From the NCBI GenBank assembly GCA_045637825.1, contig JAZUAD010000005.1:3198-67197 (forward strand): DNA of 64,000 nt, in the 5' to 3' direction. This DNA is from Candidatus Onthoplasma sp. (GTDB taxonomy: Bacteria; Bacillota; Clostridia; Christensenellales; UBA1242). Made by a program: the position numbers and the translations under genes. Shown here piece after piece: positions 32,161 through 39,028 of this stretch. Positions within the stretch are counted from its first letter, which is position 1. Each line of letters begins with the position of its first letter. Below the pieces are notes generated by a model. The model saw only the letters and a list, made by a program, of their open reading frames with translations. It was not told the DNA's origin and did not search any database.

Positions 32161-32190
32161 TTGCGTAAATGGGTGTATTTGTGTTAAAAT
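32161..32190 (+). promoter_or_regulatory. Candidate internal promoter for the sipW operon
   Basis: TTGCGT (32161-32166), 18-nt spacer ending TGt, TAAAAT (32185-32190). I see no terminator between the giant gene and sipW. Confidence 0.45.
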
Positions 32191-32248
32191 ATACCATAGG
32201 AAGTAAAATTAATGGTTTTATTTCCATAAATATAAAACTTAAGTGTGG

Positions 32249-32276
32249 TTGTCAAGTGGCTGGTGCCATTTGACAA
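32249..32276 (+). promoter_or_regulatory. Perfect stem-loop in the sipW leader
   Basis: TTGTCAAGTGGC-TGGT-GCCATTTGACAA forms 12 bp (one G-U pair) around a 4-nt loop. No T-run follows. Confidence 0.6.
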
Positions 32277-32317
32277 TCGCAATAAACATACAAATAAAGA
32301 TTGCTAAAAGGGGAAAT

Positions 32318-32851
32318 ATGAAATATACTAGCGATATAAAAGATGTAAAGGAGTTTTGGTGGGCCAAAACTATAATGTATAACTTAGTGATGTCTATATT
32401 TATTACAGTAGCTTTGGCGGTAATTGCTGTTTATGCTTTTGGTTTAAGATTAGATGTTGTATTAAGTGATAGTATGAATCCTGTGTTTTATAAGGACGAT
32501 ATAGTTATTGTTAGGGAATTCAAGGAATATAAAGTTAATGATATTATTGAATTTCAAGTTAGCGAAGTGTCTAAGCCGGTTACGCACAGAATTGTAGAAA
32601 AAAATGGAACTGGTGCAACTGCAACCTATAGAACAAAAGGTGATGCTAACCAAGATTCTGAAGCATATACAATAACTCATAAACAAATAAACGGAAAGGT
32701 GATATCTATTATTGAAGATGGTAATTTGATATACCAATTTGTAAAGAGTAATTATTTCTTATTTATAGATATATTGTTAGGAATTTGGGTGTTGACTTCA
32801 ACGCTTTCAAATGAAAAAGAAATGCGAAAACACAATATTGCCAATGTGTAA
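32318..32851 (+). CDS. sipW: SipW-type (ER/archaeal-type) signal peptidase I
   Basis: I placed the start at the ATG at 32318, behind aaaagggga. N-terminal TM segment, catalytic-Ser box LSDSMNP, His box VTHRIV, TKGDANQDSE, and a C-terminal TM segment (FLFIDILLGIWVLTSTL) as in B. subtilis SipW. Confidence 0.85.
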   Translation: MKYTSDIKDVKEFWWAKTIMYNLVMSIFITVALAVIAVYAFGLRLDVVLSDSMNPVFYKDDIVIVREFKEYKVNDIIEFQVSEVSKPVTHRIVEKNGTGATATYRTKGDANQDSEAYTITHKQINGKVISIIEDGNLIYQFVKSNYFLFIDILLGIWVLTSTLSNEKEMRKHNIANV

Positions 32852-32866
32852 TAAGGGGGAAGTGTA

Positions 32867-37978: not shown

Positions 37979-38101
37979 ATGCTGGTTATGATTTGGCGCT
38001 TAAATATAGTATATTATGGGCTGATTAGGTGGTAAAATTGTGGATTTGTAGTAAAAATATTAAAAAAATGTAAGATTTATAAAAATTTTGTTGAAAATTG
38101 T

Positions 38102-38130
38102 TTGACTTAGTATTTTACAATTAGTATAAT
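38102..38130 (+). promoter_or_regulatory. Consensus sigma-A promoter of the putative major TasA-like subunit gene
   Basis: TTGACT (38102-38107), exactly 17 nt, TATAAT (38125-38130). About 120 nt of 5' UTR precede the ATG at 38254. Confidence 0.75.
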
Positions 38131-38253
38131 TGTAATAGAAAGTAAACGAAAAGACTTGTAACTTATTAATATGTCGTTAGTTAATCGGTTAGGGTCAAAA
38201 TTCGTTCTCTTTCAATAAATTTTTAATTAAAAATATATAAAAGGGGAAAAATT

Positions 38254-38919
38254 ATGACAAAAATTAATAAGTTAGGCAAGTCTACATTTGTAATTGCAAT
38301 CTTATCATTCTTGTTGGTTGCTGTACTAGCATTTGGTGGTACTTACGCTTACTTTAGTGCTACTTCTGGTGATGCTATTTCTGATAGTGTAACATTAGGT
38401 CACTTGGAAGTTGCTCTTGCTGGTGTTTCTGACGGAGATATTCTTTTAGTTGAAGAAAAGGCTGTTCCAAATCAACCAATTCTTGATAAAGCAATAACTC
38501 TAGATATGGGTGATACAAATATCGACGCTTATGTAAGACTTCAATTTGATATCGAAGTTAAACTAACTGGTGGCGCTGATGTCGTTTGGGGAACTGGAGA
38601 AGGTAAAGCTGGTATTGAAGAAGAAGATTTCTTATCTGGTGATGAACTTGCTGGTTGGGTAAAAGTTGGTAATTACTATTATCAAGGTGCTAACGAAGAA
38701 GCTGATGCTACAGTAGTTTCTGCTGATGTTGAACTAGATTTAGACATCAGAATCAGTAAGGCTGTTGGTAACTATTTCCAAGATGCTGTTGTAACTATTA
38801 CAATTAGTGCTGAAGCTGTTCAAGCTGATTTCTTAGGAGATGCTGGAACTGCTGATTCTACAATCTCTATTGAAGATCTAAGTGCTAACTGGGACGCTAT
38901 TGTTGCTGGTACATATTAA
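38254..38919 (+). CDS. TasA-like putative major fibre subunit with a SipW-type signal peptide (221 aa)
   Basis: ...LAFGGTYAYFSATSGDAISDSVTLGHLEVAL. C-terminal WVKVGNYYYQG and GNYFQDAVVTITISAEAVQADF, compared with my recall of TasA NKYQGNSIKLQFSFEATQW. Acidic and Cys-free, with strongly biased gct/ggt/gtt/gaa codons. It has its own promoter and terminator. Confidence 0.8.
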   Translation: MTKINKLGKSTFVIAILSFLLVAVLAFGGTYAYFSATSGDAISDSVTLGHLEVALAGVSDGDILLVEEKAVPNQPILDKAITLDMGDTNIDAYVRLQFDIEVKLTGGADVVWGTGEGKAGIEEEDFLSGDELAGWVKVGNYYYQGANEEADATVVSADVELDLDIRISKAVGNYFQDAVVTITISAEAVQADFLGDAGTADSTISIEDLSANWDAIVAGTY

Positions 38920-38980
38920 TCTAATTTAGATTAAAGTATTACATAGATTGCATAAATCTAACAAATAACGACAATAAAAA

Positions 38981-39028
38981 GAATCAAGGTAACCCGTGGT
39001 TGGGTATGAGGACTTGGTTCTTTTTTTT
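38981..39028 (+). terminator. Intrinsic terminator of the major-subunit gene
   Basis: Outer stem gaatcaag / cttggttc (one G-U pair), an inner accc/gggt pairing, then TTTTTTTT. Confidence 0.75.

What the first reader, a model, noticed from the sequence alone, without database searches (positions are those of the whole stretch)
32161..39028. One SipW-type signal peptidase followed by five differentiated TasA-like paralogs: candidate multi-subunit, sortase-independent surface-fibre system
The SipW call rests on LSDSMNP, VTHRIV, TKGDAN and a C-terminal TM segment.

Four downstream proteins carry SipW-cognate-style signal peptide ends:
- GGTYAYFSATSGD (221 aa)
- GYTYAYFSAQVSAES (253 aa)
- GKTGSWLSDNEDVG (214 aa)
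- LGVTFASGNYRF (882 aa)

My recalled comparison is B. subtilis TasA ...GGGTWAAFNDIKS.

All five downstream proteins also share a late motif pair. The first part is W-x-x-x-G-YYY or a Y-rich strand. The second part is a terminal alternating strand, compared with my recall of TasA NKYQGNSIKLQFSFEATQW:
- GNYFQDAVVTITISAEAVQADF
- LGATVNIVVKLEAIQAN
- YIGDTLEITLEPVYVKS
- VQGEMVKLYLFIEGNA
- NNIKIHINAMVFKGNE

The model operon tapA-sipW-tasA has one major and one accessory substrate. This locus instead has a multi-module 882-aa form, two minor forms, a membrane-anchored form with no cleavable SipW-type signal, and a separately transcribed putative major subunit. That is the division of labour expected for a tip, adaptor, base and shaft. 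I do not recall such an arrangement being characterised.
Basis: partly seen in the sequence, partly recalled or inferred. Interest (0 to 1): 0.85.

Follow-up and report, generated by a model that had tools for sequence, protein, structure and literature searches.

The report
SipW-linked TasA-like fibre gene cluster
An uncultured gut Clostridia bacterium carries a conserved operon for a dedicated signal peptidase, three divergent TasA-type fibre proteins and two unclassified surface proteins, so it is an expanded, uncharacterised variant of the known TasA/BsaA biofilm-fibre systems rather than a new kind of machine.

Summary
The genes and quoted motifs are all present. The peptidase is a genuine ER/archaeal (SipW-type) signal peptidase I. 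Of the five downstream proteins, only three are supported as TasA/BsaA-family paralogs: 221 aa, 253 aa and, more weakly, 214 aa. The 882-aa protein is a confident all-beta multi-domain protein with a SipW-style G-x-T-x-A signal end but no detectable TasA similarity. The 301-aa protein is an N-in single-pass membrane protein with conserved cytoplasmic motifs and only a faint, non-significant resemblance to the 221-aa family. The 221-aa gene has its own strong promoter, its own terminators and ribosomal-protein-level codon bias, so it is the likely major subunit. Gene order is conserved in seven related metagenome genomes. The closest known systems are C. perfringens sipW-bsaA-bsaB-bsaC, B. subtilis tapA-sipW-tasA, B. 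cereus TasA/CalY/CapP and the archaeal ABP operon. The most likely function is a sortase-independent donor-strand-exchange fibre with accessory proteins. The tip/adaptor/base/shaft assignment remains untested. I rate it a new variant of a known kind, of moderate interest.

The parts
23744..32116 (+). 2,790-aa orphan lipoprotein, probable first gene of the conserved block.
   Evidence: The N-terminus has a lipobox ending in Cys-Lys-Glu, conserved in L036 and L037. It has no Pfam, NCBIfam or PDB sequence hit. It precedes the SipW gene in 9 of 9 loci with upstream coverage, including the distant L030 and L034.
32318..32851 (+). ER/archaeal-type (SipW-type) signal peptidase I, 177 aa. The mechanical ORF starts at GTG 32243.
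   Evidence: TIGR02228 scores 70.7 bits against a cutoff of 51.85. The motifs SDSM, THRI and GDA, an N-terminal TM segment and a C-terminal TM segment are conserved in 7 orthologs that all start at MKYTS.
32867..35515 (+). 882-aa secreted all-beta multi-domain protein, a candidate TapA/AbpB/BsaC-like accessory protein (nucleator and/or adhesin).
   Evidence: The signal peptide ends in G-V-T-F-A, and G26, T28 and A30 are nearly invariant in 34 orthologs. The AF2 model has pLDDT 80.9 and pTM 0.81: residues 1-41 are disordered, about four beta-sandwich modules follow, and the C-terminus forms helices at 841-876. There is no Pfam, NCBIfam or PDB match. Foldseek gave only generic multi-beta-sandwich hits with TM about 0.1.
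35555..36316 (+). 253-aa TasA/BsaA-family paralog, candidate minor subunit.
   Evidence: hhalign against the 221-aa family gives 99.3% for the full length and 97% (E 1e-10) for the mature parts. TIGR04088 scores 17.8 bits in the window protein and 23.6 bits (above the 19-bit cutoff) in ortholog L003. CAI is 0.58.
36356..37000 (+). 214-aa divergent TasA-like paralog, candidate minor subunit.
   Evidence: The signal end G-x-T-[GNS]-[SA]-W-L is conserved across the family. Deep profiles give 95.7% for the full length and 84.5% (E 7e-6) for the mature part against the 221-aa family. No TIGR04088 hit occurs in 19 members. Only 22 clusters were found among 1.84 billion representatives. The gene is absent from locus L030.
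37039..37944 (+). 301-aa N-in single-pass membrane protein: S/T/K-rich cytoplasmic tail, conserved cytoplasmic motifs, a TM segment and a ~145-aa beta-rich ectodomain. It is a candidate anchor or assembly factor.
   Evidence: The family alignment of 32 sequences shows nearly invariant RKKVGGVVLD and SAEEKL motifs and a TM segment at 129-155. No family hit was found. No G-x-T-x-A motif follows the TM segment. TM plus ectodomain against the 221-aa family gives a colinear but non-significant alignment (31%, E 5e-4). It has the lowest CAI in the window, 0.52.
37950..37979 (+). Terminator-like hairpin plus U-run after the 301-aa gene.
   Evidence: The sequence is UUAGGAUA-GUAA-UAUCCUAA followed by UUUUUU, with -13 kcal/mol and z -2.4.
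38102..38130 (+). Sigma-70-type promoter-like site in front of the 221-aa gene.
   Evidence: TTGACT-17-TATAAT matches 11 of 12 positions, one of the two best sites in the 16 kb scanned. A strong AAAGGGG Shine-Dalgarno sequence lies before the ATG.
38254..38919 (+). 221-aa TasA/camelysin/BsaA-family protein, probable major fibre subunit.
   Evidence: It has 141 homologues. Of 38 aligned members, 34 hit PF12389 at E <= 0.01, and all ten checked individually score above the gathering threshold. 37 of 38 hit TIGR04088, and 6 of 38 hit BsaA TIGR04090 weakly in the C-terminal region. A colinear hhalign alignment to TasA matches the signal, G-x-L, P-[NG]-[QD] and C-terminal F-E-A-x-Q motifs (19%, E 1e-3). 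The AF2 model is a beta-sandwich with pLDDT 79 and an unstructured N-terminal segment after the cleavage site. CAI is 0.77, at ribosomal-protein level.
38976..39030 (+). Intrinsic-terminator-like stem-loop with a U-run after the 221-aa gene.
   Evidence: The stem AAAAAGAAUCAAGG...CUUGGUUCUUUUUUUU sits in a region folding at -26.3 kcal/mol, z -3.0, with 0 of 200 shuffles as stable.

Best explanation
This is a SipW-dependent, sortase-independent TasA/BsaA-type extracellular fibre (matrix or pilus) locus of an uncultured Christensenellales-related gut bacterium (Candidatus Onthoplasma-like).

Shown:
- A dedicated ER/archaeal-type signal peptidase is co-encoded with four exported proteins whose unusually conserved signal peptides end in the SipW-cognate G-x-T-x-A/S motif.
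- Three of these proteins (221, 253 and 214 aa) are divergent paralogs of one TasA/BsaA-like family.
- The 221-aa gene is a separate, strongly signalled, highly codon-adapted transcription unit. The others are tightly packed (15-39 nt gaps) and poorly codon-adapted.

Inferred by analogy with TasA (PMC9674648), TapA (PMC10151520) and BsaA (PMC11580942):
- The subunits are exported by Sec and held in the membrane by the conserved signal peptide.
- SipW cleaves after G-x-T-x-A. This frees an N-terminal strand (YFSA..G-x-L-x-V) that inserts into the beta-sandwich of the neighbouring subunit by donor-strand exchange, building a non-covalent polymer of the 221-aa protein.
- No conserved Lys exists for a BsaA-type isopeptide lock.
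- The low-abundance 253- and 214-aa paralogs act as minor, nucleating or adaptor subunits.
- The 882-aa multi-beta-domain protein has a conserved but unstructured post-cleavage N-terminus. It plays the TapA/AbpB/BsaC-like accessory role: first donor strand and/or adhesin.
- The 301-aa signal-anchor protein holds or terminates the fibre at the membrane, or couples assembly to a cytoplasmic partner through its conserved RKKVGGVVLD motif.
- The giant lipoprotein upstream belongs to the same surface module.
For: - Peptidase: TIGR02228 is above its cutoff and the catalytic motifs are invariant.
- Motif specificity: 4 of the 15 ORFs with an N-terminal hydrophobic segment carry the motif, and they are exactly the four downstream genes.
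- Family placement of the 221-aa protein.
- Paralogy: 253~221 at 97-99% and 214~221 at 84-96%.
- Signal peptides are the most conserved part of all four substrates (89% against 28% in the 221-aa family), with many synonymous DNA changes.
- The N-terminal segment after the cleavage site has low confidence in both AF2 models, whereas the domains are confident.
- The 221-aa gene has promoter and terminator signals and CAI 0.77, against 0.52-0.66 for the others.
- No protein has LPXTG or HExxH.
- Gene order is conserved in L001, L003, L005, L006, L033, L036 and L037. The core block is kept in the distant L030 and L034.
- Precedents exist for each accessory role (PMC11580942, PMC10151520, PMC9245690, PMC13082335).
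Against: - Foldseek of the 221-aa model against PDB, which holds TasA 5OF1/8AUR and AbpA 7UEG, gave no TasA-like hit among the top 50; the best E was 0.05.
- Sequence profiles of all the families find nothing in PDB.
- The PF12389 matches cover only the signal peptide plus the first 20-45 mature residues. The window's own 221-aa and 253-aa proteins score below the curated cutoffs.
- The 882-aa and 301-aa proteins show no significant similarity to TasA-like proteins.
- Polymerisation, SipW cleavage and the roles of the subunits were not and could not be tested.
- Most syntenic loci are close relatives (rsmI and the DnaB_2-domain protein gene are 76-87% identical), so part of the gene-order conservation is simply shared ancestry.
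- In L034 and L004 the 221-aa homologue is not next to the block, or the block is not next to the homologue.
Confidence: 0.55

Rival explanations
1. The conserved unit is the block giant lipoprotein-SipW-882-253-(214)-301. It builds or displays a cell-surface adhesin complex around the ~2,800-aa lipoprotein. The small SipW substrates serve as its stalk or partners rather than as a long fibre. The 221-aa TasA-like protein would then be an independent matrix protein that merely sits nearby.
For: The giant gene precedes SipW in 9 of 9 loci, including the distant L030 and L034. In L034 no 221-aa homologue follows the block. In L030 three unrelated genes (dUTPase, RsmI, Fic) separate them. In L004 the 221-aa homologue has no block within 10 kb upstream. 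The 221-aa gene has its own promoter and terminators. Many 221-like genes occur elsewhere without SipW.
Against: The giant protein has a lipoprotein signal, not a SipW-type one. The 253- and 214-aa proteins are paralogs of the 221-aa protein. The only SipW-type peptidase seen near any 221-like gene is the one in this block. Adjacency of the 301-aa and 221-aa genes holds in 7 loci here. It is also suggested for about 10 further short contigs by matching contig lengths, which is an inference, not a verified result.
Confidence: 0.2
2. The downstream proteins are ordinary SipW-processed secreted or membrane proteins (matrix, coat or spore-associated, as TasA was first described) that do not form an ordered heteropolymer. 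Their shared features reflect only a common export and processing route.
For: No fold match to TasA was found. Similarity to the curated families is concentrated in the signal peptide. The 882-aa and 301-aa proteins are unclassifiable. TasA itself was first characterised as a spore-associated protein (PMC9674648, introduction).
Against: Similarity among 221, 253 and 214 aa extends over the mature domains. The colinear alignment to TasA includes the C-terminal strand motif. The BsaA model hits the C-terminal region. The post-cleavage N-terminal segment is conserved but unstructured, as expected for a donor strand. The 221-aa gene carries very strong expression signals typical of a structural polymer.
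Confidence: 0.15
3. The 301-aa protein is a regulator, a transmembrane sensor or anti-sigma-like factor that controls the locus, rather than a structural anchor.
For: It has conserved cytoplasmic motifs and a variable S/T/K-rich tail. It has the lowest codon adaptation in the window. Its ectodomain has no significant similarity to the fibre proteins.
Against: No sigma factor, DNA-binding gene or kinase gene is adjacent in any locus. The protein has no known regulatory domain. Its TM segment resembles the 221-aa signal peptide and the alignment is colinear, though weak (31%).
Confidence: 0.1

Closest known systems
Clostridium perfringens sipW-bsaA-bsaB-bsaC operon (PMC11580942; Obana et al. 2020 as cited there)
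   Same: A SipW-type peptidase is followed by more than one remote TasA homologue and a large (~70 kDa) third secreted protein. The major subunit is modelled to polymerise by N-terminal donor-strand exchange. Oligomers are membrane-associated and sortase-independent. The BsaA model TIGR04090 weakly hits the C-terminal region of the 221-aa family.
   Different: This locus has three TasA-like paralogs. The large protein has no VWA domain and no known domain at all. A signal-anchor membrane protein and a giant lipoprotein are added. The major subunit is separately transcribed at the end of the locus. No conserved Lys exists for the N-E-K isopeptide triad. No type IV pilus genes were seen nearby.
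Bacillus subtilis tapA-sipW-tasA (PMC9674648, PMC10151520)
   Same: There is a dedicated SipW. The G-G-T-x-A signal end is followed immediately by the donor strand. The low-abundance accessory genes are co-expressed with sipW, against one abundant subunit. The alignment to TasA is colinear, including the ..F-E-A-x-Q C-terminal strand.
   Different: The Bacillus SipW equivalog model is far below its cutoff (58 against 190 bits). TasA itself is not detected by PDB sequence search or Foldseek. No TapA homologue was detected. The gene order differs and there are more components.
Bacillus cereus sipW-tasA-capP-calY tripartite system (PMC13082335)
   Same: Two TasA-family paralogs co-assemble into heterofilaments with help from a third, non-TasA protein, and the system is sortase-independent.
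   Different: No CapP homologue was found, and the number and type of accessory proteins differ.
Pyrobaculum calidifontis archaeal bundling pili operon (AbpA, AbpB, Pcal_0904; PMC9245690)
   Same: A TasA-like pilin is paired with a lineage-specific protein of several beta-rich domains, proposed to give the first donor strand and act as an adhesin. A protein with a single N-terminal TM segment and a beta-rich ectodomain is proposed as an anchor. The relationships are detectable only by sensitive comparison.
   Different: The archaeal operon has no dedicated SipW. It has one TasA-like gene and different membrane proteins. No sequence relationship to the 882-aa or 301-aa proteins was shown here.
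Chaperone-usher pili (Fim/Pap) of Gram-negative bacteria (analogy only)
   Same: They use ordered hetero-oligomers of paralogous subunits (tip adhesin, adaptors, rod, terminator) joined by donor-strand exchange. The best, non-significant Foldseek hits of the 221-aa model were DraE/AfaE subunits (prob 0.63).
   Different: This locus has no usher, no periplasmic chaperone and no outer membrane, and homology is not supported.

Membership tests
ER/archaeal-type signal peptidase I (SipW type, TIGR02228) | Family HMM score above the curated cutoff | tested here: met
   TIGR02228 scores 70.7 bits against a cutoff of 51.85. The bacterial type-I model TIGR02227 scores only 24.1 against 47.
ER/archaeal-type signal peptidase I (SipW type, TIGR02228) | Ser/His(/Asp) catalytic motifs (S-x-S-M, T-H-R, G-D-A/N) instead of Ser/Lys, plus N- and C-terminal membrane segments | tested here: met
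   LSDSM, VTHRI and GDAN, an N-terminal TM segment and a C-terminal hydrophobic segment are conserved in 7 orthologs. The assignment of catalytic residues rests on my own knowledge of SipW.
Bacillus SipW equivalog (NF046067) | Equivalog HMM score above cutoff | tested here: not met
   58 bits against a cutoff of 190. It is the same type of enzyme but not an ortholog of Bacillus SipW.
SipW-dependent-type signal peptide (TIGR04088) | Domain HMM at or above 19 bits at the N-terminus | tested here: inconclusive
   In the window, the 221-aa protein scores 17.1 and the 253-aa protein 17.8, both just below the cutoff. Among relatives, 37 of 38 in the 221-aa family hit at E <= 0.01 (best 2.3e-8), and one 253-aa ortholog scores 23.6 bits. 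The 214-aa family gives 0 of 19 hits and three 882-aa orthologs give 0 of 3. All four families nevertheless keep G-x-T-x-A/S.
TasA/camelysin family (Pfam PF12389 Peptidase_M73) | Pfam HMM above the gathering score of 22.5 bits | tested here: inconclusive
   In the window, the 221-aa protein scores 16.1 bits, the 253-aa protein 13.2 bits, and the 214-, 882- and 301-aa proteins give nothing. In the 221-aa family 34 of 38 members hit at E <= 0.01, and all ten examined individually score 25.5-31.1 bits. The matches cover only profile positions ~8-79 of 196, i.e. the signal plus the N-terminal strand.
TasA/camelysin family | Jelly-roll/beta-sandwich fold superposable on TasA (5OF1, 8AUR) | tested here: not met
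   The AF2 model of the 221-aa protein (pLDDT 79) is a beta-sandwich, but Foldseek against PDB listed no TasA or AbpA chain in the top 50; the best E was 0.048 with TM <= 0.28. The 882-aa model gave only generic hits. Sensitivity is limited for divergent, strand-swapped monomers, so this weakens membership but does not exclude it.
TasA/camelysin family | Detectable homology of the mature domain to TasA | tested here: inconclusive
   hhalign of the A1 profile against the single TasA sequence gives a colinear alignment of 179 columns at 19% probability, E 1e-3. For the mature parts alone it gives 1.8%. No TasA-family alignment was available to build a proper target profile.
BsaA family (TIGR04090) | Subfamily HMM above 60 bits | tested here: not met
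   18 bits (E 0.0019) over residues 138-192 of the 221-aa protein. 6 of 38 relatives hit, best E 1e-3.
BsaA family (TIGR04090) | N-E-K triad for the intermolecular isopeptide lock (PMC11580942) | tested here: not met
   No Lys is conserved at 80% or more in the mature 221-aa family; the conserved polar residues are N73, Q74, R95, E187 and Q190. The columns were not aligned to BsaA itself.
   Met for 253~221 (97%, E 1e-10) and 214~221 (84.5%, E 7e-6). Not met for the 882-aa protein (<= 15%) or the 301-aa ectodomain (<= 15%; 31% when the TM segment is included). That gives three of five.
Donor-strand-exchange fibre | The N-terminal strand of one subunit completes the fold of the next, and filaments are formed | not testable with these tools
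   Only single-chain AF2 was available. A fused-chain attempt failed at the alignment stage. The indirect evidence is a conserved but low-confidence post-cleavage N-terminal segment.
Sortase-dependent pili | LPXTG sorting signal with a C-terminal TM segment and charged tail | tested here: not met
   None of the seven proteins has LP.[TSA][GAN], and their C-termini are not hydrophobic anchors.

The most novel reading that the evidence does not exclude
The locus builds an ordered hetero-oligomeric TasA-type pilus in a Gram-positive bacterium, analogous to Fim/Pap pili but without chaperone or usher. The 882-aa protein is incorporated first, as a distal adhesin or nucleator. The 253- and 214-aa paralogs act as adaptors, and the 221-aa protein forms the shaft. 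The 301-aa protein would be a TasA-derived subunit whose signal peptide has become an uncleaved signal-anchor with a cytoplasmic extension. It would accept the last donor strand, thereby terminating the fibre and tethering it to the membrane, possibly under cytoplasmic control and possibly connected with the giant lipoprotein.
Probability: 0.2. Interest if true: 0.75.

Novelty: new variant of a known kind. Interest (0 to 1): 0.45.

Why it matters
TasA-type donor-strand-exchange fibres are so far understood from one-subunit or two-subunit systems in Bacillus, C. perfringens and a few archaea. How they are nucleated, anchored and terminated on a Gram-positive surface is still open.

This locus offers a conserved natural experiment. 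It combines three differentiated TasA-like paralogs, a large beta-rich SipW substrate, a signal-anchor protein with conserved cytoplasmic motifs and a giant lipoprotein. All of them evolve fast (30-50% identity while neighbouring housekeeping genes are 76-87% identical) in abundant but uncultured animal-gut Clostridia.

If the components assemble in a fixed order, this would be the first TasA-family pilus with dedicated tip and anchor subunits. It would also give candidate adhesins for host or particle attachment in Christensenellales-like gut bacteria. If they do not, the locus is still a useful addition to the catalogue of SipW regulons.

Tried and rejected
- Sequence searches of PDB with single proteins and with family profiles for all five families found nothing relevant.
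- Foldseek of the 221-aa and 882-aa models against PDB gave no TasA, TapA or AbpA match.
- A metagenome scan with the 214-aa family found no confirmed locus.
- Exact look-up of the window's 221-aa protein among encoding contigs found no record.
- I tried to test donor-strand complementation with one AF2 job on a read-through or fused chain. In the fused 301-ectodomain/linker/221 alignment, MAFFT placed the 221-aa homologues on the wrong half, so I abandoned it. I used the second job for the 882-aa protein, and the 301-aa ectodomain therefore has no model.
- Camelysin-like metalloprotease activity is rejected: none of the proteins has HExxH, and the 221-aa protein has a single His.
- Sortase-dependent anchoring is rejected: there is no LPXTG.
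- BLASTP found no internal repeats in the giant protein.
- Rfam and tRNA scans of the window were empty.

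
Full report
**Observation**

The window has about 32% G+C and is chromosomal. Its neighbours include DNA polymerase III alpha, RsmI, an M1 peptidase, a DnaB_2-domain protein and an IstB/DnaC-like protein, and the L33-SecE-NusG-L11-L1 cluster.

The peptidase ORF mechanically starts at GTG 32243, but all orthologs start at the ATG giving MKYTS (32318, 177 aa). Gaps between sipW, the 882-, 253-, 214- and 301-aa genes are 15-39 nt. A 309-nt gap precedes the 221-aa gene.

My own recalled TasA sequence matched PDB 8AUR at 100% over residues 28-261, which also fixes the SipW cleavage point at GGGTWA|AFND.

**The peptidase**

It passes the ER/archaeal-type signal peptidase I model (TIGR02228, 70.7 bits against a cutoff of 51.85). 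It is far below the Bacillus SipW equivalog cutoff (58 against 190 bits) and below the bacterial type-I model. The S-D-S-M, T-H-R-I and G-D-A-N motifs and both terminal membrane segments are invariant in seven orthologs. It is therefore a SipW-type enzyme, but not an ortholog of Bacillus SipW.

**The substrates' signal peptides**

Of 66 ORFs of at least 100 aa in the window, 15 have an N-terminal hydrophobic segment. Only the four genes after the peptidase follow it with G-x-T-x-[A/S]:
- 882 aa: G-V-T-F-A
- 253 aa: G-Y-T-Y-A
- 214 aa: G-K-T-G-S
- 221 aa: G-G-T-Y-A

The motif is conserved in each family.

In all four families the signal peptide is the most conserved part of the protein. Identity to the window protein, signal peptide against the rest of the mature protein, is:

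| Family | Signal peptide | Rest |
|---|---|---|
| 221 aa | 89% | 28% |
| 882 aa | 71% | 47% |
| 253 aa | 66% | 35% |
| 214 aa | 59% | 39% |

The underlying DNA carries many synonymous differences, so the constraint is on the peptide. This fits a signal peptide read by a dedicated enzyme. In the BsaA model (PMC11580942) it would also hold the acceptor subunit in the membrane until strand exchange.

The curated TIGR04088 model is only narrowly missed by the window's 221-aa and 253-aa proteins (17.1 and 17.8 against 19 bits). It is passed by relatives: 37 of 38 in the 221-aa family, and one 253-aa ortholog at 23.6 bits. It does not see the 214-aa or 882-aa families.

**Are the five proteins TasA-like paralogs?**

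*221 aa.* It has 141 homologues. Of 38 aligned members, 34 hit Pfam PF12389 at E <= 0.01, and all ten examined individually score above the gathering threshold. These matches cover only the signal peptide and the first mature strand. The BsaA model TIGR04090 weakly hits the C-terminal W..G-Y-Y-Y..strand region. hhalign against the single TasA sequence gives a colinear, end-to-end but weak alignment (19%, E 1e-3). It lines up GGTYAYF with GGTWAAF, G-x-L with GTLDL, P-N-Q with P-G-D, and MGATITITxEAxQADYL with QGNSIKLQFSFEATQWNGL.

*253 aa.* It is clearly homologous to the 221-aa family: 99% for the full length and 97% (E 1e-10) without signal peptides.

*214 aa.* With shallow profiles it matched only through its signal peptide. 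With 19- and 38-sequence profiles the mature domains match at 84.5%, E 7e-6.

*882 aa.* Neither its N-terminal domain nor the whole protein shows significant similarity to any of them (<= 15%).

*301 aa.* The ectodomain alone shows no significant similarity (<= 15%). Including its TM segment gives a colinear 148-column alignment to the 221-aa family at 31%, E 5e-4. In that alignment the TM segment overlies the signal peptide. This is a hint, not evidence.

Three of the five are therefore supported as paralogs.

**Structure**

*221-aa model* (pLDDT 79). It is an eight-stranded beta-sandwich with two short C-terminal helices. The segment after the predicted cleavage site has low confidence (residues 33-38 below 50). 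Foldseek against PDB gave no hit better than E 0.048 and no TasA or AbpA chain in the top 50. The most probable hits, still non-significant, were DraE/AfaE chaperone-usher subunits.

*882-aa model* (pLDDT 80.9, pTM 0.81). Residues 1-41 are disordered. About four beta-sandwich modules follow (roughly 42-215, 258-440, 459-610 and 623-830; these boundaries are my reading of the DSSP string). The C-terminus forms a helical segment at 841-876. Foldseek returned only generic multi-beta-sandwich proteins (transglutaminase, complement C5, iridovirus capsid) with TM about 0.1.

Fold membership in the TasA family is thus not demonstrated. Given the known extreme divergence of the family (PMC11580942, PMC9245690), it is also not excluded.

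**Expression signals**

- After the 301-aa gene there is a hairpin plus U-run (37950-37979; -13 kcal/mol, z -2.4).
- Before the 221-aa gene there is TTGACT-17-TATAAT (38102-38130, 11 of 12 matches) and a strong Shine-Dalgarno sequence.
- After the 221-aa gene there is a strong terminator-like stem-loop (38976-39030; z -3.0).
- Measured against the window's own L1, L11, L33, NusG and SecE genes, the 221-aa gene has the highest codon adaptation of any non-reference gene (0.77). The others score 0.66 (882 aa), 0.61 (214 aa), 0.59 (sipW), 0.58 (253 aa) and 0.52 (301 aa, the lowest in the window).

This supports one abundant subunit and several scarce partners. It parallels TasA against TapA and SipW (PMC10151520).

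**Distribution and synteny**

The closest public relatives are MAGs named Candidatus Onthoplasma, uncultured Clostridia or Christensenella, from animal and human gut samples. NCBI taxonomy places Onthoplasma in the Christensenellaceae.

The order giant lipoprotein - SipW - 882 - 253 - 214 - 301 - 221 - rsmI recurs in L001, L003, L005, L006, L033, L036 and L037. These are fairly close relatives: rsmI and the DnaB_2-domain protein gene are 76-87% identical, whereas the surface genes are only 30-52% identical. The surface genes therefore evolve fast, and part of the synteny is inherited.

Two more distant loci are more informative:
- L030 keeps giant-SipW-946-226-325, with no 214-aa homologue. 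Its 221-aa homologue lies three unrelated genes further on.
- L034 keeps giant-SipW-880-231-220-283 and is followed by Suf genes, with no 221-aa homologue. In L034 the 214-like protein has a canonical ..G-N-T-N-A-W-F-T signal end.

L004 has a 221-aa homologue without the block within 10 kb upstream.

The 882-, 214- and 301-aa families are small and lineage-restricted: 34, 22 and 31 clusters, all unnamed and without Pfam domains.

**Comparison with known systems**

The arrangement is closest to C. perfringens sipW-bsaA-bsaB-bsaC. That operon has SipW, two remote TasA homologues, a large third secreted protein and membrane-associated oligomers, and its polymerisation is modelled as donor-strand exchange (PMC11580942).

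In B. subtilis, TasA residues 28-38, directly after the SipW site, are the donor strand. The TapA N-terminus is proposed to give the first strand (PMC9674648, PMC10151520). B. cereus builds TasA/CalY heterofilaments with the chaperone-like CapP (PMC13082335). The archaeal ABP operon pairs a TasA-like pilin with a three-domain beta-rich TapA-like protein proposed as nucleator and adhesin. It also encodes a protein with a single N-terminal TM segment and a beta-rich ectodomain proposed as an anchor (PMC9245690).

What is new here is their combination: three paralogs, an 882-aa protein with no known domain, a signal-anchor protein with conserved cytoplasmic motifs, a separately transcribed major subunit and a giant lipoprotein.

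No conserved Lys exists for a BsaA-type isopeptide lock, and there is no HExxH or LPXTG.

**Mechanism and verdict**

The most likely reading (confidence about 0.55) is a SipW-dependent, sortase-independent donor-strand-exchange fibre. The 221-aa protein would be the major subunit, the 253- and 214-aa paralogs minor subunits, and the 882- and 301-aa proteins accessory factors.

- Shown: the gene content, the peptidase type, the motif specificity, the paralogy of three proteins, the expression asymmetry and the synteny.
- Inferred: cleavage by SipW, polymerisation, and all subunit roles.

The main rival (about 0.2) is that the conserved block serves the giant lipoprotein, and the 221-aa protein is an independent matrix protein.

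The finding is a real, coherent locus and a new variant of a known kind. The claims of 'five TasA paralogs' and of a tip/adaptor/base/shaft architecture go beyond the evidence.

Noticed in passing
window 23744-32116 (+): A 2,790-aa lipoprotein with no Pfam, NCBIfam or PDB match and no BLAST-detectable internal repeats. It precedes the SipW gene in 9 of 9 related loci, including the distant variants L030 and L034.
   Followed up: partly
window 55731-58823 (-) and 31290-31900 (+): A 1,030-aa protein with no Pfam hit carries at least two modules homologous to the giant protein's C-terminal region (BLASTP E 5e-7; motif PY-I-SNEQQL..FTG). They look like beta-helix or GLUG-type repeats. Its N-terminal hydrophobic segment ends in C-I-G-V-T-F-Y-Q-F, reminiscent of the SipW-cognate motif, so it may be a further SipW substrate.
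   Followed up: partly
window 38254-38361; loci L001, L003-L006, L033, L036, L037: The 36-residue signal peptide of the 221-aa family (MTKINKLGKSTFVIAILSFLLVAVLAFGGTYAYFSA) is almost invariant (89% identity) while the mature protein is about 28% identical, and the DNA carries many synonymous changes. All four putative SipW substrates show the same pattern, the reverse of ordinary Sec signal peptides.
   Followed up: yes
window 37225-37500 (+), 301-aa protein residues 63-128: Conserved cytoplasmic motifs (SAEEKLKKSLKGLS and RKKVGGVVLDxxTIQDAxKQ) lie just before the TM segment, after a variable S/T/K-rich tail. They match no known domain and suggest a cytoplasmic partner for this membrane protein.
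   Followed up: partly
loci L001-L037 compared with window 23744-44415: Surface genes (giant, 882, 253, 214, 301, 221) are 30-52% identical between loci whose flanking rsmI, DnaB_2-domain protein and IstB/DnaC-like genes are 74-87% identical. This indicates rapid, possibly diversifying, evolution of the whole surface module.
   Followed up: partly
loci L011, L016, L020, L021 (around 9,900-11,600): Related genomes carry other, divergently oriented pairs of 221-like (TasA-like) genes with no SipW gene within 10 kb. One SipW may therefore serve several dispersed substrate loci.
   Followed up: no
proteins P0204 (757 aa) and P0209 (2,027 aa): A 214-like module forms the N-terminal ~190 residues of a 757-aa protein. 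It also matches weakly, in nine stretches, inside a 2,027-aa protein. Fused or repeated forms of this domain therefore exist elsewhere.
   Followed up: no
window 23003-23744: A 740-nt A+T-rich intergenic region (the 22-24 kb window has the lowest G+C, 0.275) lies upstream of the giant gene. It contains an extended -10 promoter-like site (23679-23707) and several weaker promoter-like sites, and may be the regulatory region for the whole block.
   Followed up: no
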